Assembly: GCA_000002445.1 (NCBI GenBank)
Contig: AE017150.2
Location: 672,001-736,000, forward strand
Origin: Trypanosoma brucei
Taxonomy: Eukaryota
Direction: 5' to 3'
Length of the DNA: 64,000 nucleotides
Of this stretch, positions 3,346-41,800 are shown one piece after another. The position numbers were made by a program, and so were the translations under genes. A model generated the notes under the pieces. The model did no database searches and was not told where the DNA came from. It was given only the letters and a program-made list of their open reading frames with translations. Every line of letters begins with the position of its first letter. The stretch's first letter is position 1.

Positions 3346-5638
3346 TATCCGTTAAAACGATGTTTCGGCTGGACCGATGGTGGTGCGTGGCGTGCTATGA
3401 AGTAAAGGGTGTAATGGTGTCGGTAGTGGTGATGACGAACAGATAACGTGCGCTAATGGTAATAGTGCTCCGAGCTAACGTATATATATATATATATATA
3501 TCCCAGGCAATCCCCTTTCTTTTTTGCCTTTTCTTCAGAAACTGTGACACGCCACCTACGTTTCCTCCTGTGGTGAGCTGCACCTATTGGCCTCGGCGCC
3601 TTTGATGTTGAATGGCGGAAGAATAACGGTCCGTCCTTCCTTTAATCGCAACGGCGGAAGCGGTTATCGATGAATTGTCGCTGACGTTATTGTTAATGCT
3701 GCTCCTTTAATCTTCTGGTTCAGTTCCACTTACTCTTCTTATTTGATGCAGGAATCTTTAAGTAGGCACAACGTCGTGTTTCAATGCGATGCTCCCGTTT
3801 GTGTTTACTTTATCTTAAAAGATGCCTCTGGAATTACTCCGTGAAAACGGCGGATCCTTTTCGCAATCAACTCAATATATATATATATATATATATAAAT
3901 ATATTCTTCCTTGCCTTCCTGCTTGGACGTGCAATTTCGAATACTCTTCCACAGTTGTCTTTTTTTTTTCTCAGCACACACACACGCAGGCACGTGAGGG
4001 AAACAAATGCAGAGCCCTAACGTTAATTTTACTATTATTGCTTTCGCGTACCTAGTTATTTGTCAATACTCTGTTTCTTATATATATATATATATATATA
4101 TAGACAAATATATTTATTTACAACAAATATATATAATATATACACGTACGTATATGAGGGGACGGATGTGCAGGTATTTTTGTTGTTTAATTCCGGTTTC
4201 TGTCCCGTTGTATTTCGAGAGTACGCGATTTATATCGTCCCCTAACCTTTCCTATGTGATTGAACCGCTTACGTACTGCTGCGGCACTCCTGTTCTGGAG
4301 ATAATTACTTTTTCTTTTAAGAGACTTCAGTGTTGAAATGCTTGCTGCTGCGTATCAAACTATGTGTATATTATATTTGTATACACGTGTATGTGCATGT
4401 GCGTACATGTTAAGAAGTTGAAAACAACAAGAACAACAAAGGAAACGGCAAAGGGACACGATTGTAAAGTTGTGATAAGAAAGGTTAGATATAACAATAA
4501 CAATAATAATAATTTTTTTTTAAAAAGGCGCGTATCGTTCACACAGTGAGCTTCAACAACACAAGCGTACACATTTGTGACGCTCTCTTTCTTCTTTACT
4601 TTCCTTTTCCTCCCTCTTTTTTTTGGGGGGGGGATCTCCCTTCACGAACTAACACAGACAGTTAGTAATATATAAATATAAAAATATGTCAATGGGGTGC
4701 GTGATCATTTCCATTTCCTTTTTCAGCATAGCATCATTCCCTTTCATTGCTTCAAACACACACGCGAAAAGAAAAGCAACAACACCACAAGTTGTGAAGA
4801 GTACCAAACACTTTAAAATATTGCCTAGTGGTGGTGCCGGTAGCGGAAGAAGTAAAGAAAGCAGCGGGAAAGCCTCTCAAAACGTAACGCGGCAGAAAAA
4901 TAAATTAAGTTGAACAAAGAGGAACCACACAAGTACAGGCACATCCCTACAAAAACAACGGTAATACCACTAAAAACAGGTACATGCATCTCAAACGAAC
5001 ACAACCAACAAATCGTAAATGTTGGATCACAACACAAAAAGAATATATACCGCTGCAGCTGTTGTGAAAAGTAAGATGAAAACAAAAAACAAAACAACAA
5101 CGTCAGGCACAAAAGTAGAAAGTTTACTACTAAGTACTCCACAAAAGCGATCATGAGACCGAGTGATATTCCGCGTAATTGTGAATACAAAAAAAAGCGG
5201 GAGAGGGATGAGACTTCTCACCAGAGATTTTCTTTCTCATTTTTTCCTTTTACCTTCATTTCTCCAGTTGGGCATTCACATGTTTGCTTTTTGGATTATT
5301 CGGAGTCACTACGCTGCACTGCCATTATCTGTTCACTCGCCGACAGCACATAATAGTGTAGGTGAAACAAGTAAAACAACCCCTGTACCATGTTAATCCT
5401 ATCCATAAACAGCCAAATATATAAGTATAAATATACAAATATAGATATTTATCTCTTTGTTCAATCTACTCTATTTTATTCCCTCATTAACTGTCTAGAG
5501 AACTGACGAGAAATAAAGATGCCCCCCCCCCCCGCTACACACACATACACACATACAGACACACACACGAACACGCACAAAAATAAAAAAAAGAACAATA
5601 ATAACAATAACACCGAGATCAACAACAACAAGAAATGC

Positions 5639-7150
5639 CTAGTATGCCGAAACGGCAGTCATGGTGTGAACCATAAGTTCCTCCATTCCTTCTTCTAGCG
5701 CTGCCGCAAGTTTGTTACCGTATTCCCACAGTTCGTCCGTAAGTGCAGCTATATCAATCCTTTCAGCCTGTTGGGGTAGCGGCACAATCCACTCATACTC
5801 CAAACGTTCGCCCTCGTCCCCAGCCTTTGTGATGATGAGCGGCGTTCGTTTTGTCTCTACAAGTTGAAGTGTTACACCAGTGGCCGTTTTCTTGGCCCAC
5901 TTGCGAACCACACGCTCACAACAGTACACAACATCACCTAATTCCGGCGATAACACCGACTGCACAGAATCCCGTGTGCTACGTAGTATGTCCGCTTCAA
6001 GGTAAGCATCCGCAATACGTTTCTTGATGGGATGCCTGGCACGCACGACGTAACGCAAATCGGGCATCTTACTGCGAATGTAGTGTGAAACGAAGAACCG
6101 ATCCCACGGTTTGTTCATCATCGTGCACTTAAGTTGACCATTGAGCTCACAATCGAAAAACTCTGCCATGCGACGGATTGTGACTTTATAGCTCGTTGTG
6201 CGTTCCTGTTGGATGCTCATGTTAAGAGCTGCCGCCAGAGACTCCATGGCCGCTACGTTGGATTCGCTCGCAATGGCAAACCAGGCATACGGATGCTGAG
6301 CGTAGAGATGCTTTTGCACTGTCCACAGCGGCATGACATTACGATTTTGCTTTGCCACACTGCGATAGTAAAGTGCCTTACCCGCTCCGATGTTAAGCTC
6401 ACCCGGCATATTCATATTCCAAATATTCATGAGGCACCATTCAAAGGCCATTCGGAATCGCATTTTGTTTGCGTCGTTTGGGGCAACGTGAATTGCTGCC
6501 AGGGCATTCTTCACCTTACTTTGCCCCGGAAGTTTGCTCGGGTCGATACTCGCAATACCCACATCTGTAGCTGTCTCACTGTGCAGAAGCTGAAAGGCTC
6601 GAGGAGAAAGCGGATCATAACGTTCGCCCATTCGTCCAGGGCTTAATTCCATAAAGTCCAACTCACGACGGTCCTCAAAACCGGGTTCTGCACCCCAATC
6701 ACCGTATTCATCCGCTTCTTCCAGCGCATCTTCGGCACGATCATAGTCCGTCACAACAATGGCGTGTGGGTTGTCCTCCTGCGGTACCGTTGCGCTCGCC
6801 TGCTGCTCAGCGGAGAGAATTTCTTCCACCTGCCGCACCAACGCACTCTTTTTTGCACGAGGGTCCACATTTGCCACGCGGCAGTGCTCCTGTAAAAAAA
6901 AAGCAAGTTCCGGTACTGAAAGTGAAAAGAGATTGCCTTCATTCCATAAGCCCCATACGGTGTTACGAGTAATGTGTGAGAAGTCACCGCTGGCTGCCGG
7001 TGCAGCTGCAGAAAAAGACTGCTGACGAGTCGCAATTTGCAGCGGTGCGACTGCTCGGCTAAAGGCACTTGTTGCACCGTTCAAAGCGCTGAATATTTTC
7101 AGGCGCGCGCGCAGCATGTAAAAAAACTTTTTAGAAAGAGAAAAAAACAA
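5639..7150 (-). CDS. Conserved hypothetical protein with a predicted N-terminal mitochondrial presequence. No recognisable catalytic motif.
   Basis: 503-aa uninterrupted ORF on the same strand as its neighbours. The first 11 codons (MFFSLSKKFFY) look like a translated pyrimidine-rich UTR. The more likely start is the ATG at 7115..7117 (minus), giving MLRARLKIFSALNGATSAFSRAVAPLQIATRQQSF, an Arg/Ser/Ala-rich amphipathic presequence-like segment. An acidic stretch (DYDRAEDALEEADEYGDWGAEPGFED) follows. Confidence 0.7.
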   Translation of the reverse strand: MFFSLSKKFFYMLRARLKIFSALNGATSAFSRAVAPLQIATRQQSFSAAAPAASGDFSHITRNTVWGLWNEGNLFSLSVPELAFFLQEHCRVANVDPRAKKSALVRQVEEILSAEQQASATVPQEDNPHAIVVTDYDRAEDALEEADEYGDWGAEPGFEDRRELDFMELSPGRMGERYDPLSPRAFQLLHSETATDVGIASIDPSKLPGQSKVKNALAAIHVAPNDANKMRFRMAFEWCLMNIWNMNMPGELNIGAGKALYYRSVAKQNRNVMPLWTVQKHLYAQHPYAWFAIASESNVAAMESLAAALNMSIQQERTTSYKVTIRRMAEFFDCELNGQLKCTMMNKPWDRFFVSHYIRSKMPDLRYVVRARHPIKKRIADAYLEADILRSTRDSVQSVLSPELGDVVYCCERVVRKWAKKTATGVTLQLVETKRTPLIITKAGDEGERLEYEWIVPLPQQAERIDIAALTDELWEYGNKLAAALEEGMEELMVHTMTAVSAY

Positions 7151-9009
7151 ATTAACGTGAAATGAAGGGCCAGGCCACTCCCCGCAACAAAACTACCGTG
7201 CGGTTACACTTGCTCTTCGGACTCACTATCGACTTCGGCAGACTCAAACAAACAAAAAAAACAAACAGTTTTTTTTCTTTCTTAGCCGTCCTGATACCAC
7301 CGTGAGCACCTTAACGGTTCAGCGGTTATATTGTTGAGAATGCCGCGCAGTGTGTTGTGTTGTGTTGCCCCGTTTCTTCCCGTTTGTTTCCGCCCTGCAA
7401 TCAATTAAGAGCCGCTATTATGACACAACTTTTTTTTCCTTCTTCAATTCTCTTATATATATATATATATATATTTCTCTTTCGCTTCCTTTTGTTGTTG
7501 TTTTCCCTTGTTTTATTTTTTAATTATTTCTATCCCGAACTTTATATTATCCTTTAGCTAAGGATTTGTTACCGTGTTGTCTGTCTTTTTTCTCTTTTTC
7601 CTCTTTTTTTACTTCAAGTTCTTACTTGAGCAACTTGAACTTGAAGAACTTTACGTGCAACCCCTCAAACGTCACTTCCTATCCCAATCAAAGCACGTAA
7701 ATAACACCAAAAAACTACTACTATATATAAAAAAAAAGCAAGTGAGCTAAGAGAAAAAGAGGAAGAAGAAAAATTGAAGTATAGGGTGAAGATTAAGGCA
7801 ATGTAATATCCGTGTGGTATGTATGAGGGTGTATGTTACATTTAATATTTAAATACATTATGCATATATAAATATATAAATATACGTTCATTGGCTTGTT
7901 TTATAGACGCGGCCGTGCCGCAGTGATTATTTCATTTCTACCGCCCGATTGAGCCAATCCAGCGTTTGGAAAAGGGATAACTGCCTTTCGCTGTTTTCCC
8001 CACTTTCCCTCAATCCTTATAATAATTTCCAACCTCTTCTTTCTTCTCCTTTGCTCCGTTTTTCTTTTCTTTTTTTTTTCTTTAAAAAAAACTCTTTTAA
8101 ACATTGTTTTCTTTTACCTCTTAGAAAAATAAATATATTATTTCCTTTTTAAAATTTCTTTTGCATCTCTTTCTTCTTTTCTTTTCTTTTGTTTTTTATT
8201 TTTCTTCTCCCCTCGATGTTGTTTTGTTCCTTTCCGTCAAATGTCCAATATTCATCTCTTTTTCCTTCTTCCCTTCCTCATTCATCTATTCGTTTTATTT
8301 ACAAAATTTGCCTTTTGCCTTTTCTCATTTATTTTTTTTTACTTTAATCATTTTTTTCCCTTTCCCTCAATACTTATAATATCCCTCTCTTTTTTTCCTC
8401 GTTTATTTACCCGGAGGCATGTGCAAATTGTTTCGGCCGCCCATCAAGAATTAAAATCAAAAGAAACAGAAAAAACAACAACAACAACAACATCATCATC
8501 ATCACCAACAAGAAACATAAATACACACAAACACACATAAATATATAAATATAAATATATAAATATACATATATGCATTTATGTATTTATTTTATCTGCA
8601 CAGCCATACAACAACAGCTACAACAACAAAAAAACAAAACAAAAACAAAAGCCGTCCAACCACAAAAAGGTGTGACATTGAAGTTTTTAAGAAAAAAAAA
8701 GTGATGACGATGGCGAAGGGAGCGCAACAGTAATAATAATAACAATAATAATAAAACCCCAACAGAAAACTGAAACAATCAAATTAAAACAAAAAAAAGT
8801 TACTTACTGGTATTAACAACTATATTATATAGATTAGTAATAGTGACAATTAGGGCAATAATAACACTAGTATAGCAACAACAAAAATATATATTATATT
8901 CGTGTTTAATTACATAAATTTAAATATATAAATATATTTTAATTATTTATTCACGTGTGCGTGTGTGTGCGTGTGTGTGTTTAGCAGTACAAAATCGAGA
9001 AAGGAAGAA

Positions 9010-9042
<33 letters not shown>

Positions 9043-9043
9043 G
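9010..9043. repeat. (AAC)11 trinucleotide microsatellite.
   Basis: aacaacaacaacaacaacaacaacaacaacaa lies within the long ORF-free tract. Confidence 0.9.
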
Positions 9044-12000
9044 AAAGGAATTTATTTTATTTTATGGGGATGAGGCCGCTTGTAAGAGAGGTTAGGAGTC
9101 CGAATGAAAATGAAACAGGCTCATAGGTAAAGGAAAGCTGAGCAGCGTAAAGAGAAATAAATTCCGTATTTCATGCAAAAAAAACAAAACAAAACAAAAC
9201 ACATACAAAAATAATATAGAAAAAGAAATATGCGTATTTATTTATTTATGTATGTATTATATGTGCGCCTTCCCCTTTGTACACGTAAACATAAAACATA
9301 AAACATTGCTCAAAAAAGAAAAAAAAAGAAAGAAAGAAGGAAGGGTTATGAAGAGCTGGAAGCACGAACCTGCACGGACAGTCACAAATGTATAACCCAC
9401 AACAAATCAAATCAAATCAGAGCAAAAAAGAAAAAAAAGAAAAAAGGACTTGAATAAAAAGAAAGAAAAAAAGAAAGAAAAAACAGGTCAAAATTGTAGG
9501 TTCCCTCAGACGCATCCGACATGTGCTCTGATCACAGCTCAAACATATCCACAAATAATTTAAAAAAAAACAACACGACAAAATACTTGCGAAAAAGTAT
9601 ATAAACATGTGGAAAATATTTGTATGTTTATAAACTTCTCCAATGGTTTCGCTGACATTATCAAATTCATCACAACTTTTCCCTATTCTCCTCCTTTCCT
9701 CCTTTTATCTCCAGTCACAAAATATATAAGCACACACGCGCGTATTTACACATGATCTTCTCTTTTTTTCTTTGTAGAAAACAACAACAAAAAAATCGAT
9801 ATAAATGATTTAATTAATACATATAAATTAACACAAAAATATACCGAATACACTTTGCCATTATTCCTCTTGTCGTAGCAATTTTTTGTTTGTTTGTGCG
9901 TGCGTGCGGTGGATTTGGTACAAGGGATATTTTACAACATCCCCACACCAATGCGAAGTCAAAAATACGTAAGGAAAAAAAACAGAAAAACAAAATTAAT
10001 AAATTATTTAACGAAATGAATAAATAATTAATTAACCTTGTTTTCTTTTTTTTTTTTCACTACTAGTATTGTTGATGTTATGGTGGAATCTCGTACAATG
10101 TAGGAGGGACAAGAAGAGGAAGAAGAATGATAATATGAATTCATTGAAACGAAACGAAGAACAAAAACAAGAACAAAAAACAAAAACAAAACAAAACAAA
10201 AACCGCCTCACGTCACTGCTTCCCATGCACTTTTAGTGCTTTTGAATAAAAAAAAATGGGAGAGGGGGTGCGCCTCATATAACGCCAGGCGATATAAAAA
10301 TAATTTTAAAAAATTAAAAAAAAAAGATATTTATATCGTTATCATATCATCGGTAACAATCTCCTTTTGCTTGCCTTTTCCTTACTTACTTCCTTCTTTC
10401 ATTTCCTTCCTCCTTACGAGGAAACAATAATAATAATAATAACAATAATAATAATAATAATGAGACACAAACTCACATGCACGAATCCACATAAATACCC
10501 AAATTCATTCAAATGAATGCATACAACAGAACACAAGGTTTTTTTCTCCTTAAAAAAAAAAAAGAAAAAAAAAAAGAAAATCATTGCTGAGAGACGGCGT
10601 GGCATCTATGAAAAAAAAATGTTATTGAGTGAGCGAATAAGTCGGTGAGTCATCGAAAACATTTGGTGCCATTGCGTGCGCATTTTATTTTTCTCTTGTC
10701 TGTTCTTTTTTTTTCTTTTTCTTTACATTAGCAGTATAATTTATGACCGATAGTAATGGTAAAACGAGTCCTTACGTACCCATCCCAAATGAAAATGAAA
10801 ATGAAAGAAAAAAAAAACACGGGAAACGAGAAACATTAAAACAACAACAAGAAAAAAAAGGGAAAGGGAAAAAAACAAATACACAACAAATGATATATAT
10901 TTTTTTAAAAAAAGAAAAAGAACGCATACATTTCCACCTGATTTCCACACTTGAATCATTATTTTCTTTTCCTTTTCTTTCTTTCTTTTTTCCCCTTCTT
11001 CCCTTCCATCCACGTAATTTCCTCTTATTACTAAAACAATAAATAAATATGTCAGCCACTGACGAAATAATGTCAAGGAAATGGAAAAGTAGGAGGAAAA
11101 GGGAAAACAAACAAACAAACAAAAAAGATAAAAGGAAACAAATGCGGTAACATCACTTCCCTGATATATATATATATATATATTTCTCCTTTTTCGCTTT
11201 ATAAAACCCGCTGTTTCCCCCTATTTTCCTTTCTTTTTTTTTTTGGAAAAAAAAATTTCCGCGAGTATCACACTTATTAATATTTATTTAAAATATTAAT
11301 AATAATGATTATTATTATTTCATAAATTACTTTGAATTACTTTTATTTTTACTGCCGTTTCATTGCATTATATATACAAATATATGTATAAATGTGTGTG
11401 TCTATGCGTGTGTTTGTGTGGTTATTATTATTATTATTATTATTATATTTTTTTTGTAAATTACCTCAGCCGGGGCGGTGATGAAAATAATGAGAAACAA
11501 CAATAATAATGGAATTCCCGTACCGATTTAAATACCACACGGAAAACCCATATCTTCACACATAAATCTAAACATAAACATAAACATAAATGAAAAAAGA
11601 AAATGAATATAAACATAAACATAAACACACACAAATATATAAACTATATTATTATATTACATATTTAAGTATTTATGTATTACGTGAGAATAAGAGGAAG
11701 CGAAAATAAAATGAAGAAATAATAAAAGTAAAATTAATTGAATAACCACCCTCAAAAGCAAGCAAACAAACGAAAAAAACAAAAAAAACAAACAACAAAA
11801 CCAATAATAACAACACTAATAATTAATAAAATTACTACCACTGAAACATTTTGAATATGTTACGTGTATGCGTGCATATATAAATATTTGGTAGTTCTTT
11901 TTTTTCTTTCTTTTTTTTTTTAAAAAAAAGATAAATGATAGGCGTGTTTATGGATTGAGGTTGTACTAAAAGAAGGCGAAGGACATTATTTTATTTTGGT

Positions 12001-12477
12001 AGGCACGACATGAGAGAAAAGGTAGAGGTAAACAGCAACAACAAAAGCCGACAAAATCAAAGAAAGAGAGAGAGAGAGAAAACAAAAAAAGCGTATGACA
12101 ACACTTACCACCAAATTAAAGTACCGAATTGAACAAAAATCCAAGTCATAAATTAATTAGCAAACCAATGAAATTGTTTATTCATTAAATTATTTATTAT
12201 TTTTTCCGGAGTTGTTGGCATCCTTCTCATCCATAGTCTTCTTTTTTTAAAAATAATTTATTTACCTTTTCTTCTCTTTCCTACTTTATTCCCCCCTTTT
12301 CTTTATAAAACCATTTCAACTTTATACATCTAACTGTTCAATACGGGAGAGCGCGAAAACGAAAAAAAAACACAAAAACACCAAAAATAAAACCTAATAA
12401 AAATGAAAAAAAAAAGGGAAAAGGAACTGATGAATCCAAACAATCCTTCTCACATTCCCACGCGCCCTACACGTACT

Positions 12478-12482
<5 letters not shown>

Positions 12483-12516
<34 letters not shown>
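12483..12516. repeat. (TA)17 microsatellite, the longest of many (TA)n tracts in the window.
   Basis: Uninterrupted alternating TA run. Similar tracts sit at ~3481-3501, 3875-3897, 4079-4102, 7454-7474, 11164-11183, 16696-16714, 18553-18602 and 62515-62548. Confidence 0.95.
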
Positions 12517-12518
<2 letters not shown>

Positions 12519-14754
12519 CTGAGTAGCGAATTATACTTGCCCATCAATCAGTTGTTTATTTTCATTTTTGTTTGTTTAATAATTTAATTTGCGTTTATTA
12601 CAAATCTCTTCACTTCGTTTTACCTCCCATTTGTCTTTTCTTCACTTCTGCCCTTATTTTCTTTTTTTTGTTCATATTTCCTATTTTTTAAAAAAATTTT
12701 CGTTCACACGTAATTTGGCTACACCGTGCAACTGTCAAGCAAACAACCAACCAACCAACCAACCAACCAAACAAACAAACAAACACACAGCAATTTTTTT
12801 TTGTTAAATGAGCCGGGAAATATAGAAATCATTAAAAAAGAAAAGAAAGAAAAAGAATGAAAAAGAAGAGGGGAAAGGGGGAGAGACTCATATCATCACA
12901 TGCCTTTCGGATATTATATTAAATACATGCGCAACATCGTACTTGTTTTATTTAATTTGCGTGCATGTGTAATTGAGAGCATGAATTTGCTTCAACCATT
13001 ACAATTAGAAGCGACACGGGACGAATACGACCGCAACTTTTATCCTTTCAATAAATATTCCACACGATTCCGCTGCACTGCGTTATTTAATTTCATTTTT
13101 AAATATTACAAATAAATATATAAATATATATATATTTATTTATATATATTCACTCCACCTTCCCATTCACCTTAACGTTTTTATTGCGCCCTTTTCCCCC
13201 CTCTCCGTTTTCAACTGTGTTTCTCCCACTTTTGAATCACAACACATATTTCTATAAATGTATGTTTGTTATTGATAATTGCTTCACTTGGACCTTCTCG
13301 TTATTGTTTTGTTTTATTTGTCTTTTTGATATTTTATTAACTTTTTAAAAAAAATTTTCCCCTTTTTTCCCATTTCTCTCTTTTCTTCCTTAAATACATT
13401 TATTCAAACATGTTCTTTTTCTCCTCCTCCTCCCCAAAGACACATGCATGCGCTTGCGTATCCTTGTCTTACTTTTTCTTTTTCTCTTTCTTTCTTCCTT
13501 CGAAAAGAAAACTAAAAAAAAAAATTCACCTGTGTTTCGTTCCTCAAAGATCAGATACAACTGTTTCCGCCAATAACAATAATAATGATAGTAACAGTAA
13601 TATCAAAAGGTATAAATAAAATATACAAATATATACCGATATTTCACAATTAATACAAGTAAGTGACGCAACATAGAAAACAAAACAAAACAAAATCGAG
13701 AAGGGAAGCTAGAACAAGAACATATGCACACATACATATACACAGAGACATACACATACATATACACGAATAAAGGTAAATCAAACTGTTAAGGAATGGC
13801 TGAGGGAGTTAAATAAATAAAAAAAAGTAAAGGAAAGAACAACAACAACGAAAACAACAACAACAACAAAGAAACATAACAAAAAAAAGAGAGCTGAGTT
13901 TCCACAAACGTACGTGAACTCTTCTTTATTATTATTATTATTTATTTATTTCTGGCGGGTTGATATCTAATGCCGTTGGCCCTACGACCCACGTGTTTCT
14001 TTCTTTCTACTTTTTTTTTTTAAATTTCTCTCTTCCTTTTTTTTTTTGTGAAACCATTCACTCGTTGATTTCTTTTCCTCATACATTTTTTCTTTCCGTT
14101 TTGTGCGAGTCCACGCTTCGGTATTATTATTATTATCATTATTGTTAGTGTTGGTAGTAGTAGTAGTAGTATTATCCTTGCCCATTTTTTCCTTCCTATC
14201 TCTCTGTCGTTTTTATTTCTTTTTGTCCTCCCGTTCCTTTTTTTTAAAAAAAGATAAACGAAAGGAAAAATCAAAACTAATCGCCATTTCCCACTTGAAA
14301 ACCATCAGGTATCGCCTTATATTTACTTGACACAATGCCCATGCAAAAAAATCCCCCAATTCCTCCAGTTCCACTCCATACATCCACCCGATCCCGCCCT
14401 TCTTTCTTTTTTTAAAAAAAATCTGTTTTATTTGATAACGACAACCCAAATGCCAAACTTTCGATATTGTTTTTTTCTTTTTTTTAACGCTCCGTCACGT
14501 GCCTTCGGCCAGCATGATTTGCATTAACGCTATTTTTTTGTTCCTTCATACATATATGTACAATTCTTCCTGTTCCTCTTCGTATATATTTATATATTTA
14601 TTTCTTCATCTTCCTATTCACTCATTTTCTCTGCTTTCTTCTTTATTTTATTTTTTCTGATATATATATATATATATCATATATTATTTCACTTATTACC
14701 TCTGCCGTTCCTTAAATACACAAACACAGTATATATATATATATGACAGCCATC

Positions 14755-16218
14755 TTAACAGAACATCTGTGGTACCATTGGATAAGACATCATTCCCATT
14801 TGCGCTGTCCCTAACCGCTGCATCGCCGCTGGACTGCTCTCAAATACCTCAATATAACGCGTGCCCATCATTGCACCATTTCTATCAAGTGCCAAAAGCA
14901 CATCATTTCTGTCCTCAACCTCCACGAAGGCTTCTCCCGTCAGACGATTACGCTCATCATAAACCATATGAACCCCTTGCGGCGGGATTTTTACACCAGC
15001 GAAGAACTCCGCAATGGCCTCCTCTGAGGCGCTGTATGGCACGCCACGAATTCGCACAACGAAGGGACTCGGCTGCCGCGCCACCACCAGCGATGACTGC
15101 CCAGGGAAAACTGGAAGAAATGGTGGCGGTGGAGCTCCGCCAGCACCGGGGGGATATGGCGCGGAAGGTCCTTCGGCAACAATTCCTCCACCGCCAACAA
15201 TCCCCCGCTCATCGCTGAACCGGCGATACGGTTGATTGTTCATGGAGTAACGGACATCTCGTCCATCACCACCACCACGCGGATTCATGAAAGAGTTATT
15301 ATGAGGACTGTAGTGATGAAACTGTTGGGCTTGACGATGATGTTGGTGGTTATGGTAGTAGTTTTGCATTTGCGCACTGTGGTGTTGGGCGTGGTGATGG
15401 TTGTTATGGTATTGATGGTGAAATGGCCTCTGGCCCCCAAACCCCAACGGTTGCATGTAACCCTCATAAGTAGTTGGAACAAAAGGGTCAATAATCCGCT
15501 GGACCATCATCGACTCATGGCCCTGGTGGTGCGAAACATCGCCATCCGTGACACTTATTTCATACCCACGACCGCTTCGTCGACCCCGCCGCGAGCGCTG
15601 ACTGGAGGCTCGCATGATGGCATCGCGATCATATACAGTAGAGGGCAGAACTTCAATGTAACGATTGCCCATTGCTTTGCTATGAAGAAGTTTGACACGC
15701 TTCACATCTTCCTCTGATGCGAGCTCAATGAAGGCATCTCCGGTGTTCCTCCCGTCCATGTCACGGCAGATGTCAATGCTCAATACACCTTCCATAGATT
15801 CAATGAAGGTTCGTACATCATCTTCCGTAGCCGCAAAGGGGAGCCCGCGAAGCCGCAGAACGCAAGCCTTATTGCTTTGCTCTTGTTGCTCCATAATACG
15901 CTGTCGCTCCTCCTCTGATGATGTGGAGATCTCAACGTAGCGGGTTTCATCTATGTTTTGGCGATGCAGGCGGTTAATTGCCAACGCCGCGTCCTCCGCG
16001 TTACGAAGTCGAACAAACCCTGTCCCGCGATGAAGGCCCTCAACAAAAAATACAATGGGCTCTTCATCTGCCAAACTAAATGATCCAAAAAACTCCCGAA
16101 TCTTTTCCTCTTTGATGGAGTACGGTAGCCCGTAAAGCCTTAACACCGCGGCTCCCTCTGGCCGGGGACTTTGGCTTCTTTGCTGTTGTTGTTGTTGCTG
16201 CTCAGGAGACTGTTCCAT
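14755..16218 (-). CDS. HNRNPH/F: hnRNP F/H-type RNA-binding protein with three quasi-RRM domains and a His/Gln/Asn-rich low-complexity centre.
   Basis: 487-aa ORF. Three RRM-like modules begin VLRLYGLPYSIKEEKIREFF, VLRLRGLPFAATEDDVRTFI and VVRIRGVPYSASEEAIAEFF. This is the hnRNP F/H qRRM signature (R-G-L-P-[YF/W] instead of canonical RNP1/RNP2). N-terminal poly-Q (QQQQQQQ). A central H/Q/N/Y-rich stretch (HHQYHNNHHHAQHHSAQMQNYYHNHQHHRQAQQFHHY). Confidence 0.85.
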   Translation of the reverse strand: MEQSPEQQQQQQQRSQSPRPEGAAVLRLYGLPYSIKEEKIREFFGSFSLADEEPIVFFVEGLHRGTGFVRLRNAEDAALAINRLHRQNIDETRYVEISTSSEEERQRIMEQQEQSNKACVLRLRGLPFAATEDDVRTFIESMEGVLSIDICRDMDGRNTGDAFIELASEEDVKRVKLLHSKAMGNRYIEVLPSTVYDRDAIMRASSQRSRRGRRSGRGYEISVTDGDVSHHQGHESMMVQRIIDPFVPTTYEGYMQPLGFGGQRPFHHQYHNNHHHAQHHSAQMQNYYHNHQHHRQAQQFHHYSPHNNSFMNPRGGGDGRDVRYSMNNQPYRRFSDERGIVGGGGIVAEGPSAPYPPGAGGAPPPPFLPVFPGQSSLVVARQPSPFVVRIRGVPYSASEEAIAEFFAGVKIPPQGVHMVYDERNRLTGEAFVEVEDRNDVLLALDRNGAMMGTRYIEVFESSPAAMQRLGTAQMGMMSYPMVPQMFC

Positions 16219-16642
16219 GACGAGTGTTGTGTCTGTTGTAGCTTCGTTTTCAACCAGTAGGGGAAAACCTTTACTTCCCTTCCCTTCCCTCTTCTTCTCT
16301 TCTCTCTTTTTTTTTCCTTCTTACTGCCTTTTTCTCACTTCCAAACAAATTCTGGAATTATTTGTTTGTTTAGTAAGTTAAATCCTAACAGATGTTGTTT
16401 TAACAACAACAACAACAACAACTTTGCTTTCCTTGTTTCTTTTCGCTCTTCCCTCTCTAAATATGTCTTTGATAATATTAATATTGTTTCTCTTCTTCTT
16501 TTTTCCCTTTCGTGCGCGTAAAAAAAAAAAATTATGTTTAGCCTTTCTTTGGTTTGCTTTTACTTTATTTTTTTTTTAAATTTTGATTCCTCTTTTTTCT
16601 TTCCGTGTCTGTTGGGTTCCGCCCTCCGAGCGGATAAACGAA

Positions 16643-16714
16643 AATAATAATAATAATAGTAATAATAATAATAATAACAATAATAATAATAATAATATAT
16701 ATATATATATATAT
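16643..16714. repeat. Compound (AAT)n-(TA)n microsatellite (U-rich in the minus-sense transcript), ~430 nt upstream of the hnRNP F/H start.
   Basis: aataataataataatagtaataataataataataacaataataataataataata runs directly into (at)9. On the transcribed (minus) strand this reads as a long U-rich/polypyrimidine-like tract. It is a candidate trans-splicing polypyrimidine signal for the downstream gene. Confidence 0.6.
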
Positions 16715-19132
16715 AAATCCAAATAAAACAAATACCGCCGAAAGTTCACGCAAGGACACACAAACACAAACACACGAAAAAATTTTTCTTTCTGTCACAC
16801 AATATATATGATATCAAATAGAGAAATGAAATGAATGAAAAGAAAAAGAATTACACTTCGAAGATTCTGTTTGTTTCACTTATTAGTTTATTAGTTTCTC
16901 GACTTTAATAATACAACGTAAGAGATTCAAAACAAAAAAAAACTTATAGTCCTAAAATCACAACACAAACTGAAAGGAAACCTCTCCGCCTAATGATACA
17001 ATACAAAGCAAAAAAAAAAAACAACAATAACAACAACAGGAGTATGGTAGCTCAAAAATTAATAACGAAATTATTAATAATAACAATAATAATCGAAGGG
17101 AGGAAAAAAGATAAGTATCGGAAAATCAGCTTAGTGCAGCGGACAAACACAAAAACAAACAAACAAAGCCGGTTGTATGCGTTTATTTATTTATTTAACT
17201 CACCCGACGTTGTTTCCTTTTTTTTTCTTCTTTTTTCTCTTTGATTCCCTTAGCCGTCAAATTACGTTGCCGTTTCGATATGGTAAGGAACCGCTGCCGC
17301 AGTGCGTAATGCTGCTCGCAACTTATTTATCCCAAAAAAAATTTTTTTTTTAAAAAAAGAGAAAATCAAAAACCTTCTTTTCCTTTTATTTTTATTTTAT
17401 TTTATTCTTATCTTGTTTTATTTGTTTGTTTACCTTCTCTTCTTTCACTCGCTGCTTTGTACGTAAGATTCGGTTTCACGCGTAAGCAACCACTAGTTAT
17501 TTGTTGTTGTTGTTGTTATATTTTTATTTTTTTTTTATAAAAAAAAAAACAACCGATTTCTTTTTCTTTCCCCTTTTCTCTCTTTTGATGCTCAAACACA
17601 CACACACACACAGGAATGACGGATTTAGCTGAGTAGGCGGGTTTTTTTTTTCCAGTTACTCTCGCTTTTTTTTTCTTGTTTGGTTGTTTTTCTTCCTTCT
17701 TTTTCGCTTCACCTCTTTTCCTTCCCCCGCACGCTTCCGTTCTTGTCGTTGTTTTGGCGTCTAATCACACAAACGAACAAATAAAACAACAAGTCAAAAA
17801 CACACTAAAGAAAACGAAAACGAAAAAAAAAAAGAAGCGTTACTAAATTAAACTAACTATATATATATATATGTCTCCCTTTTCCAAATCCCTTTTATTT
17901 TTTTTTCTTCTTTTACTTTCTACGAAACTCTACACACGTTTCCCTTTCTTTCTTTCTTTCTTCCACCCACTCCCTTGTGCTCAAACTTCCTCTTCCTTCC
18001 TTCTTTCCTTTAACTCACTGAATGTCTGCCTTCCTTTCTGACCTTTTCTCTTCCTTTCCTTCACTCTTTCCGAGTATTTTTGTGCGTCTCTTTTTTTTTT
18101 TCTTTTCTCTTCTTTTCTTTTTCCCCCTCCCTTCTACTTTCTTCTTACGCTCTCACGTATGCACTGTCACTTGACTGTACACAACACAGACACAAAAGTA
18201 AACAAAACAAAACAAAAAACAAAAAACAAAAAAAAACAAAAAACAGAAGCCCCAAAGTGCCGCTTTGTTTAATTTTATTACCTTTTTTGGTATTTGGTGT
18301 TGTTCTTCGCTCTTAGTTATATAACCTCCGGTACTGTAGGTCGTAAGGGATATAACGTCAATGTATAAATATATAAATCAATATCAATATATTGAGTTGT
18401 TACCACTTAGCTCCCGTCCTGAGGTTTTTGTTCCTTGAACGTGACCTCGCCAGTCGTTTTTTTCCTTCTTTCCTCCCCTTCCTTTTCTTTTCTTCCAAAA
18501 ATCCTTCTAGTTTGTTCTCTCACTTCTCCGTCTCCGTCTGTTTGCTTTTTGAATATATATATATATATATAATTTTTTAGATATATATATATATATATAT
18601 ATGTTGGATCTTCACTATTGTCCCTTCTTCTTTGTTCCCCTTTTAGTTCGGAAATGAGTAATAAGAGATGGGGAAAAAAGAAAACAAATAAATAAATGAA
18701 AGCAAGGGACACGAATATGTATATTCAATTTTTTTTTGCATTGTTTAAATAAGGAACAACGTAAGAGATTAGGGACGTTAGTACAGATAATAACGGTAAT
18801 AACGGCGATGTTGGGAAAGAATTTTGGAAGAATAGAAATACGTTGCCAAAAGATAATATTTGGCTACATGTCCAATGTTTATCCTATCGCGTTGACATGT
18901 GCTTCATCAACGACTGCACAATCACCAAAAGAACGGCGTTCGCACAAAAGCAAAATCAACCATTTTTTCAAAAAAAAAAAATGAAACATTCAAAGAACCA
19001 AACCAAGTCGATATTGTTTCATTTAACCCTTCTCCCCATCCTCCCCCCCCCCAAAAAAGACAACACACACACACAGTCGTACATATCCATTCACTCATTC
19101 ATCACTCTTGCATCAAACGTTGCCGTAATCCT

Positions 19133-21069: not shown

Positions 21070-21639
21070 CTACTTGCGCCTAGAATAAACAGCCTGCGTA
21101 GTTGCCTGCCGCACGTAGGAACCACGTGACAGACCCCGTGAGGCGCTGAAATTTCTCAACCCCGGCAGCATGTGACCTGAAACTATTTGCAATTGGTCCC
21201 ACAACCCGTCTACGGATTGCGCGCCACGCTCCCGGGAAGCCACTGCCCGCGCTCGTACTGATCGTGATTCCATGAGGCCGCGCTGGACGTTAAGAATGCC
21301 TTCACCCCGGCGAATGGCAGCTGAGATTAACTTCGGAGCTGAGAGGTGGCGACGGCTATGGAACTCGTTGCGCAGACGAAAGAGAAGATCCGCACGCTCC
21401 TGAGGTGGGTGCTGATAAATCAGTTTCAGTAAGTCGCGATACAAATGCAACACATCCTGCGCCCGGTAGGGGAAGTTATAAAATGACGGAACCGCCGTAC
21501 CAAGAACCTGCGGCTCACGTCCCCTCGCAAGGCTACGCAGGCAACAAGAAAACATAACCCCGCCTCGGTTCCCGCTTTGGGGAAGGGATATAACAGGGGA
21601 CCTTCGAAAACCGAAATGGTGAAGCTGTGGGCGGTTCAC
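21070..21639 (-). CDS. Small LYR-motif (Complex1_LYR/ISD11-like family) protein, putatively mitochondrial.
   Basis: ORF contains VLHLYRDLLKLIYQHPPQERADLLFRLRNEFHSRR. This is the L-x-x-L-Y-R..L[KR] signature with the downstream conserved Phe of the LYR family. The likely true start is the internal Met (MFSCCLRSLARG..., about 21555), giving ~161 aa. The rest is low-complexity Arg/Ser. Confidence 0.5.
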   Translation of the reverse strand: MNRPQLHHFGFRRSPVISLPQSGNRGGVMFSCCLRSLARGREPQVLGTAVPSFYNFPYRAQDVLHLYRDLLKLIYQHPPQERADLLFRLRNEFHSRRHLSAPKLISAAIRRGEGILNVQRGLMESRSVRARAVASRERGAQSVDGLWDQLQIVSGHMLPGLRNFSASRGLSRGSYVRQATTQAVYSRRK

Positions 21640-38847: not shown

Positions 38848-41800
38848 TCAATTCTTCTTCGGTGATATCGATGGTGATTCAGGAGGTGACAAGCAGATAA
38901 TATTGTTATCATTCTGTGAGTAATATTGTTGACGATGAATCAGAGCGAGTCTTTTGGAGTTGGTGCTGCTTCCACGCTCGTGATCTATGTTCAGCGTCAG
39001 CGTAGGTGGGATTATACCCTCTGCATTTACATTTAACCTGGGACGCCGCTCAGAATTAACATCAAAACGCCGAATCGCCCTTTCGAACTTATGACGGAAG
39101 TTACTCGTGAACATCGTATCATCAGCGGCCTCCTCCTTGGCCACATTTTCTGATAAACCCCTCACACTGCACTCGGAGCAAATGACACTATTATTAGTTA
39201 CCTGGAAGTACGCGTCTGATATGCTATTCGCACCACACAGTTTGCAGCGAATACATTGTGGATGGAAATGCAATTTTCCGGCTTCGACACGTGTGACGGC
39301 GTCAACGGGACAGCCACAGTAAGCACACCCGACGTGAATCTCCTCAACAACGTGGATAGGACCCGTATAGTTGAGGGAAACACCGTTGCGAGCGCGAAAG
39401 ACAGAGTATTCTTCGGCGGGAGTTAAATTAAGGGGGTTGCGAACCCTCTGTATAACGTGAGGACCGTAATAATTTTCGTAAAGGAGACCTTTCCTTTTTC
39501 TCCTGACATGCTTGCCCACCGTTCCAGCTGCGGGTTGGTGCTGAGCAGATGCTAACACCTCCTGTTTCGCAGGCTTATCCCCTTTGCTCTTTTCCAATGT
39601 CCGTTGTGGCTCCTTCCCCACATTCGGTGTGAGATCCTTCTTTTCGGAGGGATTGACAGCGGCGCTCTCCACCCTTTTCGGTCCGTCGGCGCTGGCATCC
39701 TTCGGCAATGCAAGTTCCTTTGCCATACCACCCGGACCCGCCGTCTGGGCCCTTACTCCTGCATCTGAGTGTAAAGGAGTTGGTGTAGTGGCGCTCGTTT
39801 CCGTCTCTTTCCGCTCTGGAAATCCACTACCTTCCGTATTTTTCACATCATCCTCTCTGCTACTAACTACCGCGATATCCTGTTCACCCCGGGCGCCTCC
39901 AGAAACTCCAGCGGAACCAACAGTATTGACCACTTCATCATATTCAACAACCGGGGGATTTTCTCCACTCGGAGCCTCAAGGGTCTTAATATCATCAACA
40001 GCCCCAGCGGAGGCAATTGCGTCAGTTTCTACTCCAGTAACCTCAGCAAGAGGAGCCTCAGTGTTGTTGGCGGCCCGCTCGCTCTCTAGGTCCTTGAGCA
40101 CCTCTACAGCTTCGTGGGTAGCTTTGTTTTTGTCTACGGCCTTTGCGTCATTATCGACCTCGATACCACCGGAGGTTATTGCACCATCAACTACACTGTC
40201 ATCCCTAGTCGTGTCTGCTTGGTAAACAATCTCAGACTCCTCTACCACAACGGCAGATTCAGTGCCATCAACGCTAATTGTAACCTCGGCTCCCTCGATA
40301 ACTTCTGTGGCTTCCACAGTCTCAGTGGCATTGAGAGCCTCAACAGCTTCTGCAACTTCTGTGGCTTCCACAGTCTCAGTGGCATTGAGAGCCTCAGCAG
40401 CTTCTGCAACTTCTGTGGCTTCCACAGTCTCAGTGGCATTGAGAGCCTCAACAGCTTCTGCAACTTCCATAGCTTCGACAGTCTCAGTGGCATTGAGAGC
40501 CTCAGCAGCTTCTGCAACTTCTGTGGCTTCCACAGTCTCAGTGGCATTGAGAGCCTCAGCAGTTTCTGCAACTTCTGTGGCTTCCACAGTCTCAGTGGCA
40601 TTGAGAGCCCCAGCAGTTTCTGCAACTTCTGTGGCTTCCACAGTCTCAGTGGCATTGAGAGCCTCAGCAGTTTCTGCAACTTCTGTGGCTTCCACAGTCT
40701 CAGTGGCATTGAGAGCCCCAGCAGTTTCTGCAACTTCTGTGGCTTCCACAGTCTCAGTGGCATTGAGAGCCTCAGCAGTTTCTGCAACTTCTGTGGCTTC
40801 CACAGTCTCAGTGGCATTGAGAGCCTCAGCAGCTTCTGCAACTTCTGTGGCTTCCACAGTCTCAGTGGCATTGAGAGCCTCAGCAGCTTCTGCAACTTCT
40901 GTGGCTTCCACAGTCTCAGTGGCATTGAGAGCCTCAGCAGCTTCTGCAACTTCCGTGGCTTCCACAGTCTCAGTGGCATTGAGAGCCTCAGCAGTTTCTG
41001 CAACTTCTGTGGCTTCCACAGTCTCAGTGGCATTGAGAGCCTCAACAGCTTCTGCAACTTCCGTGGCTTCCACAGTCTCAGTGGCATTGAGAGCCTCAAC
41101 AGCTTCTGCAACTTCCGTGGCTTCCACAGTCTCAGTGGCATTGAGAGCCTCAACAGCTTCTGCAACTTCCGTGGCTTCCACAGTCTCAGTGGCATTGAGA
41201 GCCTCAACAGCTTCTGCAACTTCTGTGGCTTCCACAGTCTCAGTGGCATTGAGAGCCTCAGCAGCCTCTGCAGCTTCCGTGGCTTCCACAGTCTCAGTGG
41301 CATTGAGAGCCTCAGCAGTTTCTGCAACTTCTGTGGCTTCCACAGTCTCAGTGGCATTGAGAGCCTCAACAGCTTCTGCAACTTCTGTGGCTTCCACAGT
41401 CTCAGTGGCATTGAGAGCCTCAGCAGCTTCTGCAACTTCCGTGGCTTCCACAGTCTCAGTGGCATTGAGAGCCTCAGCAGTTTCTGCAACTTCTGTGGCT
41501 TCCACAGTCTCAGTGGCATTGAGAGCCTCAGCAGTTTCTGCAACTTCTGTGGCTTCCACAGTCTCAGTGGCATTGAGAGCCTCAGCAGCTTCTGCAACTT
41601 CTGTGGCTTCCACAGTCTCAGTGGCATTGAGAGCCTCAGCAGCTTCTGCAACTTCTGTGGCTTCCACAGTCTCAGTGGCATTGAGAGCCTCAGCAGTTTC
41701 TGCAACTTCTGTGGCTTCCACAGTCTCAGTGGCATTGAGAGCCTCAGCAGCTTCTGCAACTTCTGTGGCTTCCACAGTCTCAGTGGCATTGAGAGCCTCA

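What the first reader, a model, noticed from the sequence alone, without database searches (positions are those of the whole stretch)
7151..14754. 7.6-kb ORF-free, low-complexity tract downstream of the hnRNP F/H gene
Most spacers in this window are 0.3-2.5 kb, whereas this one is 7.6 kb with no ORF longer than ~125 aa, and those are translations of homopolymeric or microsatellite sequence. It is dense in (TA)n, (AAC)n, (CCAA)n, poly-A/T and alternating pyrimidine-rich and purine-rich blocks. It lies on the 3' side of the hnRNP F/H-type RNA-binding protein gene, which also has a 2.9-kb spacer (16219-19132) on its 5' side. Possibilities are an exceptionally long regulated 3'UTR (regulatory RBPs in trypanosomes often carry long UTRs), unannotated non-coding RNA genes (snoRNA clusters live in such spacers), or an assembly-difficult repetitive region.
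Basis: seen in the sequence. Interest (0 to 1): 0.6.

Follow-up and report, generated by a model that had tools for sequence, protein, structure and literature searches.

The report
Seven-kilobase 3'UTR of trypanosome hnRNP F/H
The 7.6-kb gene-free stretch is real and is most likely the very long 3' untranslated tail of the Trypanosoma brucei hnRNP F/H messenger RNA plus a start-codon-free leader of the next gene, which is a known kind of feature for regulatory RNA-binding proteins in trypanosomes.

Summary
The window is T. brucei chromosome 2 (window = Tb927_02_v4 coordinate minus 672,000). The spacer between hnRNP F/H (Tb927.2.3880) and GAP1/RESC2 (Tb927.2.3800) is 7,637 bp (7118-14754). It is the longest of 17-18 spacers, 31% GC, has no ATG-ORF above 99 aa, and is about 11% microsatellite or homopolymer.

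Published spliced-leader mapping (Kolev 2010) lists no acceptor between window 16598 and 7720. It places a 436-nt trans-spliced, polyadenylated non-coding transcript, Tb2.NT.37, at 7720-7284. Local poly(A)-to-acceptor spacing is 158-214 nt, which predicts an hnRNP F/H poly(A) site near 7880-7930 and a 3'UTR of about 6.85 kb.

The last 724 nt before the GAP1 ATG contain no ATG, so they look like a 5' leader. The rest has exactly the expected ATG density.

The long spacer is syntenically conserved in length (4.3-8.8 kb in Trypanosoma, 4.7 kb in Leptomonas) but not in sequence. It is only 0.3-0.7 kb in Bodo and another free-living kinetoplastid.

snoRNA, tRNA and Rfam scans are negative, and T. 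equiperdum is colinear, so this is not an assembly artefact. It is a new example of a known kind (compare the RBP10 7.3-kb 3'UTR).

The most surprising by-product is a 2.5-kb ATG-free tract upstream of hnRNP F/H.

The parts
14755..16218 (-). hnRNP F/H (HNRNPH/F, Tb927.2.3880) coding sequence, 487 aa, three RRM/qRRM domains
   Evidence: 100% identity to the T. brucei-group protein; CDS 1464 nt.
7900..14754 (-). Predicted hnRNP F/H 3'UTR, about 6.85 kb. It is AT-rich, has normal ATG density, contains 21 internal polypyrimidine-tract + AG candidates and 51 AAGAA motifs, and has no UAUUUUUU.
   Evidence: Kolev 2010 Table S4 lists no SL acceptor between window 16598 and 7720. PPT list. Motifs and ATG count (131 observed, 132 expected). 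The extent is inferred, because no poly(A) site was seen.
7878..7934 (-). Predicted poly(A) addition zone for hnRNP F/H mRNA
   Evidence: Inference. The three mapped poly(A)-to-next-acceptor distances in this locus are 158, 162-190 and 214 nt. These were applied to the acceptor at 7720.
7721..7773 (-). Polypyrimidine tract (7773-7749) and AG acceptor (7722-7721). The mapped spliced-leader site has its first exon base at 7720.
   Evidence: 679720, 4 reads, 'ag'; acceptor context verified in the window.
7284..7720 (-). Tb2.NT.37, a 436-nt trans-spliced, polyadenylated transcript with no ATG at all. It is probably also the body of a minor long-leader GAP1 mRNA.
   Evidence: Kolev Table S7 coordinates 679720-679284, also listed in the no-ORF table; zero ATG; folding z-score -0.57, so no unusual structure.
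7118..7840 (-). ATG-free tract of 723 nt ending at the GAP1 start codon (a 5'-leader signature)
   Evidence: 0 ATG against 7.4 expected, and only 0.05% of dinucleotide shuffles reach 0; runs of 300-610 nt before RESC1/2 in other trypanosomatids.
7127..7147 (-). GAP1 polypyrimidine tract and major AG acceptor. The SL site is at 7126, giving a 9-nt 5'UTR.
   Evidence: (679126, 76 reads).
5639..7117 (-). GAP1/RESC2 (Tb927.2.3800) coding sequence, 492 aa
   Evidence: RESC1_2 domain; CDS 1479 nt.
16219..18741 (-). Outside the finding: an ATG-free 2,523-nt tract upstream of the hnRNP F/H ATG. It contains the mapped 405-nt 5'UTR (SL site 16623) and Tb2.NT.38 (18639-16837).
   Evidence: 30.2 ATG expected, minimum 18 in 1000 shuffles, and 23 ATG on the antisense strand.

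Best explanation
The tract is transcribed non-coding sequence of the minus-strand polycistron on T. brucei chromosome 2, and it has two functional parts.

Part 1 runs from the hnRNP F/H stop codon (14754) to about 7880-7930 and is one continuous 3'UTR of about 6.85 kb. With the mapped 405-nt 5'UTR this gives an mRNA of about 8.8 kb. The 3'UTR probably acts as a large landing platform for RNA-binding proteins. These would set mRNA stability and translation, so that the protein is abundant in bloodstream forms and scarce in procyclic forms. Its many internal polypyrimidine tracts must be masked from the trans-splicing machinery, as shown for other long 3'UTRs with DRBD18 and DRBD3. Its purine blocks carry many copies of hnRNP F/H's own AAGAA motif, which would allow feedback.

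Part 2 is the last ~0.8 kb. It holds the coupled poly(A)/trans-splice signals, the short transcript Tb2.NT.37 and the GAP1 leader. This part is kept free of ATG, so that long-leader GAP1 mRNAs would still initiate at the right codon.

Shown: coordinates, composition, mapped acceptors, synteny and the ATG statistics. Inferred: the poly(A) position, the continuity of the UTR in bloodstream forms, and all regulatory function.
For: Coordinate mapping. Window = chr2 coordinate minus 672,000. This was checked on the ATGs of four genes and on AG dinucleotides at the mapped acceptors; the one exception reads GC in the window, just as Kolev lists it.

Transcript map. Kolev 2010 Table S4 lists consecutive acceptors at 7126, 7608, 7720, then 16598/16623, with none in between. 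Poly(A)-to-acceptor distances in this locus are 158-214 nt.

ATG density. The density is exactly as expected in 7900-14754 (131 against 132). It is zero in 7118-7840. Mapped 5'UTRs in this window are also ATG-free: IF-2 (1014 nt) and hnRNP F/H (405 nt).

Conserved synteny and length. The same gene order and an outsized spacer occur in T. vivax (8,795 bp), T. theileri (4,719), T. melophagium (4,593), T. cruzi (4,344), T. rangeli (at least 3,571) and Leptomonas (4,693). Bodo has 685 bp and a metagenomic kinetoplastid 333 bp.

Literature. The longest trypanosome 3'UTRs (5 kb or more) belong to RNA-binding proteins and kinases, for example RBP10 at 7.3 kb (PMC8982893). DRBD18 masks UTR-internal polypyrimidine tracts (PMC9380746), as does DRBD3 (PMC12592628).

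Regulation of HNRNPH/F. The protein is about 100-fold higher in bloodstream forms (PMC6597758), while the mRNA is only 2.5-fold higher (PMC2771046). The mRNA rises 19-fold after heat shock in procyclic forms (PMC3616968). This points to strong post-transcriptional control.

Motifs. AAGAA occurs 51 times against 18 expected, and UAUUUUUU (the RBP10 destruction motif) 0 times against 3.7 expected.
Against: I could not retrieve any poly(A) site for Tb927.2.3880. It is absent from the summary poly(A) table that lists GAP1.

The SL data come from procyclic forms, where this gene had only about 10 tags. Minor or bloodstream-specific internal acceptors could have been missed. There are 21 plausible PPT+AG sites inside the tract.

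No sequence block is conserved between species, so no specific regulatory element is identified.

The AAGAA enrichment is measured against a global shuffle and partly reflects the purine-block structure.
Confidence: 0.72

Rival explanations
1. The hnRNP F/H 3'UTR is much shorter. Most of the tract would then be occupied by one or more independent trans-spliced, polyadenylated lncRNAs (of the Kolev 'NT' or Guegan Ksplice type), or by stage-specific UTR-internal transcripts.
For: One such transcript is documented at the distal end (Tb2.NT.37). There are 21 internal PPT+AG candidates. T. brucei has 1,428 mostly intergenic lncRNAs (PMC9200285). Cryptic acceptors in long 3'UTRs do yield lncRNAs plus truncated mRNAs (PMC12592628; Kolev main text).
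Against: No acceptor is listed between 7720 and 16598 in Kolev's site table. Tb927.2.3880 did not turn up in the held text of his alternative-processing table. The lncRNA supplements I could search did not mention this locus.
Confidence: 0.18
2. The tract is a long 3'UTR or spacer, but its length is a neutral by-product of microsatellite and AT-rich expansion and carries no regulatory information.
For: There is no primary-sequence conservation between species. Microsatellite content is high and the indels against T. equiperdum fall within microsatellites. Spacers throughout T. brucei are AT-rich and of low complexity.
Against: This particular spacer is the largest at the syntenic locus in every trypanosomatid examined, despite complete sequence turnover, and it is short in free-living kinetoplastids. 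The gene is strongly regulated post-transcriptionally. In the analogous RBP10 3'UTR, at least six separate fragments confer regulation (PMC8982893).
Confidence: 0.2
3. The tract hosts a cluster of small RNA genes (C/D or H/ACA snoRNAs, or tRNAs).
For: snoRNA clusters do sit in trypanosome intergenic regions, and the lncRNA grumpy hosts a snoRNA.
Against: Rfam gives 0 hits at gathering scores over the whole window, and only E>0.2 hits to miRNA or bacterial sRNA models in low-complexity DNA. ARAGORN finds 0 tRNAs. There are 0 C/D-box candidates with a terminal stem on either strand. No gene-sized tandem repeats are present. No 10-13-mers of normal complexity are shared with three or more other species.
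Confidence: 0.03
4. The tract is an assembly artefact, either an expansion or a chimera in the reference.
For: Short-read assemblies fragment here. T. equiperdum contigs end at window ~11234-11244, there are N gaps at the (TA)17 array at 12482-12516, and Logan contigs end at the (TA)n at 7474.
Against: Two T. equiperdum contigs tile 18602-11234 and 11244-1 colinearly, with 0.13% substitutions and matching lengths. There are no internal large duplications. Comparable spacer lengths occur in independent long-contig assemblies of five other species.
Confidence: 0.03

Closest known systems
RBP10 (Tb927.8.2780) 7.3-kb 3'UTR and other very long 3'UTRs of T. brucei RNA-binding-protein and kinase mRNAs (e.g. 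DRBD12, mRNA ~8.4 kb)
   Same: The gene class is the same: a stage-regulated RNA-binding protein that is higher in bloodstream forms. The size range (about 7 kb) matches. Both are AT-rich and of low complexity with many internal polypyrimidine tracts. Both mRNAs rise after heat shock in procyclic forms.
   Different: The RBP10 UTR has been mapped by northern blot and RNA-seq and dissected with reporters. For hnRNP F/H I found no mapped poly(A) site and no dissection. hnRNP F/H additionally has a 2.5-kb ATG-free upstream tract.
Kolev 2010 'novel transcripts' and UTR-internal transcripts (Tb2.NT.37, Tb2.NT.38)
   Same: Tb2.NT.37 lies inside the finding (7720-7284). It is trans-spliced and polyadenylated and has no ORF of 25 aa or more.
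   Different: It covers only 6% of the tract. Its complete lack of ATG, together with the ATG-free run continuing to the GAP1 start, suggests an alternative 5' leader rather than an autonomous lncRNA. This is my inference and is not in the paper.
grumpy lncRNA / snoGRUMPY upstream of RBP7 (PMC9200285)
   Same: It is a non-coding transcript lying next to a regulatory RNA-binding-protein gene in a polycistron, and hnRNP F/H protein binds grumpy.
   Different: No snoRNA signature was found here. There is no evidence for an abundant discrete lncRNA over 8000-14700.

Membership tests
Very long regulatory 3'UTR of a trypanosome RNA-binding-protein mRNA (RBP10 type) | Continuous sequence from the stop codon to a poly(A) site coupled to the next used trans-splice acceptor, with no major acceptor in between | tested here: inconclusive
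   Published procyclic SL-site table: no site between window 16598 and 7720. The poly(A) site was not retrievable. Bloodstream-form data were not available.
Very long regulatory 3'UTR of a trypanosome RNA-binding-protein mRNA (RBP10 type) | Several kb long, non-coding, low-complexity, with multiple internal polypyrimidine tracts | tested here: met
   About 6.85 kb. Maximum ATG-ORF is 99 aa, and no coding sequence is conserved. 21 PPT+AG candidates. 25 runs of U8 or longer.
Very long regulatory 3'UTR of a trypanosome RNA-binding-protein mRNA (RBP10 type) | The encoded protein is a post-transcriptionally, developmentally regulated regulator | tested here: met
   Literature: the protein is ~100x higher in bloodstream forms, the mRNA 2.5x, with a 19x heat-shock increase.
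Very long regulatory 3'UTR of a trypanosome RNA-binding-protein mRNA (RBP10 type) | Fragments confer stage-specific expression on a reporter | not testable with these tools
   This requires transfection experiments.
snoRNA gene cluster | C/D (RUGAUGA...CUGA with a terminal stem) or H/ACA-like units, usually tandemly reiterated and conserved across trypanosomatids | tested here: not met
   Rfam negative. 0 C/D candidates. No gene-sized repeats. No conserved k-mers.
Trans-spliced, polyadenylated lncRNA (Kolev NT class) | Own SL acceptor and poly(A) site, and no ORF of 25 aa or more | tested here: met
   Met only for 7720-7284 (Tb2.NT.37): SL sites 7720/7608 and end 7284, with zero ATG. Not shown for the remaining ~6.9 kb.
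5' leader under selection against upstream AUGs | Strand-specific absence of ATG extending from the start codon to or beyond the mapped acceptor | tested here: met
   7840-7118: 0 ATG against 7.4 expected, P~0.0005, with 7 on the antisense strand. Acceptors at 7720/7608/7126 lie inside it. Mapped 5'UTRs of IF-2 and hnRNP F/H are also ATG-free. Use of the long leader on GAP1 mRNA is inferred.

The most novel reading that the evidence does not exclude
The hnRNP F/H gene sits in about 10 kb of constrained non-coding RNA: a 2.5-kb upstream tract that has been purged of every AUG, and a 6.9-kb 3'UTR.

On this reading, the catalogued 'novel transcripts' Tb2.NT.38 and Tb2.NT.37 are not autonomous lncRNAs. 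They would be the bodies or by-products of alternative giant leaders of hnRNP F/H and GAP1 mRNAs.

hnRNP F/H is a trans-splicing repressor that binds AAGAA. It could autoregulate by choosing among its own acceptors (18639, 17836, 16989, 16623; four AAGAA lie within -50..+150 of the main site, against 0-1 at neighbouring genes). It could also act by binding the 51 AAGAA copies in its own 3'UTR. The architecture would have arisen with parasitism, since it is present in trypanosomatids and absent in Bodo.
Probability: 0.25. Interest if true: 0.55.

Novelty: new member of a known kind. Interest (0 to 1): 0.3.

Why it matters
hnRNP F/H is a stage-specific splicing and stability regulator in T. brucei, yet how its own roughly 100-fold protein regulation is achieved has not been described.

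Recognising that it carries one of the longest 3'UTRs in the genome, and probably a very long uAUG-free leader, defines the sequence space in which that control must lie. It also adds a second, evolutionarily traceable case alongside RBP10 for asking why trypanosome regulators have giant UTRs.

The comparison across species (long in all parasitic trypanosomatids sampled, short in free-living kinetoplastids, with no sequence conservation) argues that length or element redundancy is what is maintained, rather than a particular motif.

For genome annotation, ATG-free runs turned out to be a simple sequence-only marker of 5' leaders in this window.

Tried and rejected
Published UTR lengths. I searched for a 3'UTR or mRNA length for Tb927.2.3880 in the supplements of six papers. 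The files were either not held, cut before the gene, or silent on it. Only Kolev 2010 gave usable site tables. The Gupta 2013 northern legend gives no transcript size. Full-text searches for Tb927.2.3810-3870 and for Tb2.NT.37/38 found nothing.

Cross-species conservation. blastn (word size 9), tblastx and shared k-mer analysis of the spacers found only low-complexity matches.

Dispersed repeats. Nothing is shared with the rest of the window.

RNA structure of Tb2.NT.37. The z-score is -0.57, which is unremarkable.

T. equiperdum divergence as a constraint test. The two are too similar to be informative: 10 substitutions in 7.6 kb.

T. equiperdum scaffold L001. It first suggested a 4.5-kb spacer ending at a 472-aa gene. 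That part lies beyond an N gap, matches nothing in the window and is a scaffolding join.

T. congolense. Only 2.3 kb downstream of hnRNP F/H is available, and its GAP1 protein has no contig on record.

Centromere, origin or transcription-start readings. I considered these but did not pursue them. The tract has no satellite array and lies inside a unidirectional gene cluster.
Full report
WHAT THE WINDOW IS

All large ORFs lie on the minus strand. The tract is flanked by two ORFs:
- A 487-aa protein with three RRMs at 14755-16218.
- A RESC1/2 (GAP1-type) protein whose ORF ends at 5639.

The RRM protein is 100% identical to 'heterogeneous nuclear ribonucleoprotein H/F' of the T. brucei group, on a 1,193,948-bp contig. 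Its 1464-nt CDS equals that of Tb927.2.3880. The 1479-nt GAP1 CDS equals that of Tb927.2.3800 and places the real ATG at 7117, not at the TTG-extended 7150.

Kolev et al. 2010 (PMC2936537) list spliced-leader (SL) sites by chromosome coordinate. The GAP1 site at 679126, with a 9-nt 5'UTR, fixes window = chr2 coordinate minus 672,000. The same offset reproduces the ATGs of IF-2, KAS and MCM. Every mapped acceptor falls on an AG in the window, and the one listed as 'gc' falls on a GC.

CHECKING THE OBSERVATION

- The spacer is 7118-14754, or 7,637 bp. The other spacers are 338-2,914 bp.
- GC is 0.31, against 0.50-0.54 in coding sequence.
- The longest ORFs are 125 and 116 aa (TTG starts) and 99 aa (ATG start).
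- Microsatellites and homopolymers cover 10.8% of bases. That is high, but it is matched by the 2.9-kb spacer upstream of hnRNP F/H at 14%.
- Purine-rich and pyrimidine-rich 200-nt blocks alternate on the sense strand, in 36 of 75 windows.

The tract is AT-rich and repeat-studded rather than mostly simple repeat.

WHAT IS TRANSCRIBED (PUBLISHED PROCYCLIC-FORM DATA)

On the minus strand, Kolev's Table S4 gives these sites in order:

| Transcript | SL sites, window coordinates (reads) |
|---|---|
| GAP1 | 7126 (76) |
| Tb2.NT.37 | 7608 (1), 7720 (4) |
| Tb927.2.3880 | 16598 (1), 16623 (10) |
| Tb2.NT.38 | 16989, 17836, 18605, 18639 |

Nothing is listed between 7720 and 16598.

Table S7 gives Tb2.NT.37 as 7720-7284 (436 nt) and Tb2.NT.38 as 18639-16837 (1,802 nt). 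Tb2.NT.37 also appears in a second table whose position in the file order suggests it is Table S11, the list of transcripts without an ORF of 25 aa or more.

GAP1 poly(A) sites are at 4521/4549.

Three poly(A)-to-next-acceptor distances can be read from this locus: 158 nt, 162-190 nt and 214 nt. Polyadenylation is coupled to downstream trans-splicing; this is established knowledge and is restated in PMC9380746. The hnRNP F/H poly(A) site is therefore predicted at about 7878-7934. That gives a 3'UTR of about 6.82-6.88 kb and an mRNA of about 8.8 kb. This step is inference, because no poly(A) entry for the gene was retrievable.

A SEQUENCE-ONLY PARTITION OF THE TRACT

On the sense strand, the last 723 nt before the GAP1 ATG (7840-7118) contain no ATG.
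- Dinucleotide shuffles expect 7.4, and only 0.05% of shuffles reach zero.
- The antisense strand has 7.

The remaining 6.86 kb has 131 ATG against 132 expected.

The mapped 5'UTRs of IF-2 (1014 nt) and hnRNP F/H (405 nt) are also ATG-free. The three longest sense-strand ATG-free runs in the whole 64-kb window all end exactly at start codons: hnRNP F/H at 2,523 nt, IF-2 at 1,053 nt and GAP1 at 724 nt.

So 7840-7118 behaves like a 5' leader and 14754-7841 does not. Tb2.NT.37 lies wholly inside the ATG-free part and has no ATG at all. I therefore read it as the body or by-product of a minor long-leader GAP1 mRNA spliced at 7720. It could still be an independent non-coding RNA. Its predicted folding is unremarkable (z = -0.57).

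COMPARATIVE EVIDENCE

The gene order KAS - hnRNP F/H - RESC1/2 - IF-2 is conserved. The hnRNP F/H to RESC1/2 spacer is always the outlier at the locus.

| Species | hnRNP F/H to RESC1/2 spacer |
|---|---|
| T. vivax | 8,795 bp |
| T. theileri | 4,719 bp |
| T. melophagium | 4,593 bp |
| T. cruzi | 4,344 bp |
| T. rangeli | at least 3,571 bp (contig end) |
| T. congolense | at least 2,274 bp (contig end) |
| Leptomonas pyrrhocoris | 4,693 bp |
| Bodo saltans | 685 bp |
| Metagenomic kinetoplastid | 333 bp |

Neighbouring spacers at these loci are 0.5-1.9 kb.

In Leptomonas pyrrhocoris, a weakly hnRNP F/H-like 569-aa gene (pairwise E = 2e-10) precedes RESC1/2 by the 4,693 bp shown. In Leishmania martiniquensis, no gene is called in the 10 kb upstream of RESC1/2. 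In Bodo saltans and the metagenomic kinetoplastid, the same two genes are close neighbours.

Sequence is not conserved between these spacers. blastn, tblastx and shared 10-13-mers find nothing beyond low complexity. ATG-free leaders of 300-610 nt precede RESC1/2 in all the trypanosomatids examined.

The long, low-complexity spacer is thus an ancestral trypanosomatid feature that is maintained in length, not in sequence.

RIVAL READINGS

- Small RNA genes. Rfam gives nothing at gathering thresholds and only chance-level hits in E-value mode. There are no tRNAs, no C/D candidates and no gene-sized repeats.
- Dispersed repeats. None is shared with the rest of the window.
- Assembly artefact. Two T. 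equiperdum contigs tile the tract colinearly, with 0.13% substitutions. They break only at an A/T homopolymer near 11240 and carry N gaps at the (TA)17 array. Logan short-read contigs end at the (TA)n at 7474. The tract is hard for short reads, but it is correctly assembled.
- Independent internal transcripts. These cannot be excluded. There are 21 polypyrimidine-tract + AG candidates inside the predicted UTR, and the SL data are shallow and come from procyclic forms only.

HOW IT PROBABLY WORKS

The longest trypanosome 3'UTRs belong to RNA-binding proteins and kinases. The 7.3-kb RBP10 UTR contains at least six independently acting regulatory fragments, and its length has been proposed as a fail-safe (PMC8982893). 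UTR-internal polypyrimidine tracts are kept silent by DRBD18 and DRBD3. Losing either protein gives truncated mRNAs plus lncRNAs (PMC9380746; PMC12592628).

HNRNPH/F fits this class:
- The protein is about 100-fold higher in bloodstream forms, while the mRNA is only 2.5-fold higher.
- The mRNA rises 19-fold after heat shock, as do the RBP10 and DRBD12 mRNAs.

Within the predicted UTR:
- hnRNP F/H's own AAGAA motif (PMC3711420) occurs 51 times against 18 expected. This is partly a consequence of the purine blocks.
- The RBP10 destruction motif UAUUUUUU is absent, against 3.7 expected.
- (UAU)n runs are present.

These counts suggest feedback and escape from RBP10, but none of this has been tested.

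VERDICT

The finding is real and is explained as an instance of a known phenomenon. I found no paper describing this particular UTR, so it is a new member of a known kind and of modest interest.

The more unexpected result lies just outside the given coordinates. The 2.5 kb upstream of the hnRNP F/H start codon contain no ATG. Shuffles expect 30.2, the Poisson probability is about 7e-14, and the antisense strand has 23. This tract includes the whole of 'novel transcript' Tb2.NT.38. Long ATG-free runs also precede the gene in T. congolense (at least 777 nt), T. theileri (781) and T. melophagium (704). That points to very long alternative leaders for this regulator.

Noticed in passing
window 16219-18741 (minus strand): The 2,523 nt upstream of the hnRNP F/H start codon contain no ATG on the sense strand. 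Dinucleotide shuffles expect 30.2 (minimum 18 in 1000), and the antisense strand has 23. The tract spans the mapped 405-nt 5'UTR and the whole of Kolev's 1.8-kb 'novel transcript' Tb2.NT.38, which suggests giant alternative 5' leaders. Comparable runs occur in T. congolense (>=777 nt), T. theileri (781) and T. melophagium (704).
   Followed up: partly
window 3346-4398 (minus strand): A 1,053-nt ATG-free run ends at the IF-2 start codon and matches the published 1,014-nt 5'UTR (SL site at window 4359). In this window the three longest sense-strand ATG-free runs all end at start codons, so the statistic marks 5' leaders.
   Followed up: yes
window 16573-16673 and neighbouring acceptors: Four AAGAA motifs (the hnRNP F/H binding motif) lie within -50..+150 of hnRNP F/H's own main splice acceptor, against 0-1 at the IF-2, GAP1, KAS, LYR and MCM acceptors. 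The 2.9-kb upstream spacer has 10.3 AAGAA per kb, the highest in the window. This may indicate autoregulation of trans-splicing, but the sample is small.
   Followed up: partly
window 17836-17838: Kolev's most-used Tb2.NT.38 spliced-leader site (10 reads) is preceded by GC rather than AG in this reference sequence, as in their table. It may be a strain difference or a mapping artefact next to a (TA)n run.
   Followed up: no
L001:7356-10401 (T. equiperdum CZPT02001591.1): After a 10-N gap, the scaffold continues with sequence unrelated to the window. This sequence carries a 472-aa ORF with no Pfam match. It is probably a mis-scaffold at the A/T homopolymer near window 11240.
   Followed up: partly
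window 5639-7720 / Antwi 2016 supplement: The GAP1 mRNA length is tabulated as 3,777 nt. CDS 1,479 + mapped 3'UTR ~1,118 + the longest mapped leader of 603 gives only ~3,200 nt. The source of the extra ~580 nt is unexplained; it may be a different annotation or an estimate.
   Followed up: no
L015:1-10000 (Leishmania martiniquensis CM030428.1): No gene is called and no hnRNP F/H similarity is found in the 10 kb upstream of RESC1/2. The only ORFs of 150 aa or more are 247 and 200 aa, without Pfam hits. This is an unusually long gene-free stretch for Leishmania.
   Followed up: partly
window 38848-42594: A 1,238-aa minus-strand ORF is overlapped by several 600-690-aa ORFs in other frames and on the other strand. 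It also shows a 2,489-nt ATG-free run on the plus strand (39708-42197). This indicates a highly repetitive, compositionally biased coding region.
   Followed up: no
window 21070-21552 (minus strand): The 1.77-kb 'spacer' between KAS and MCM contains a short ORF at the position where all the other species have a 160-aa Complex1_LYR gene. The real spacers there are therefore ~0.4 and ~0.85 kb. I did not run a domain search on the window ORF itself.
   Followed up: no
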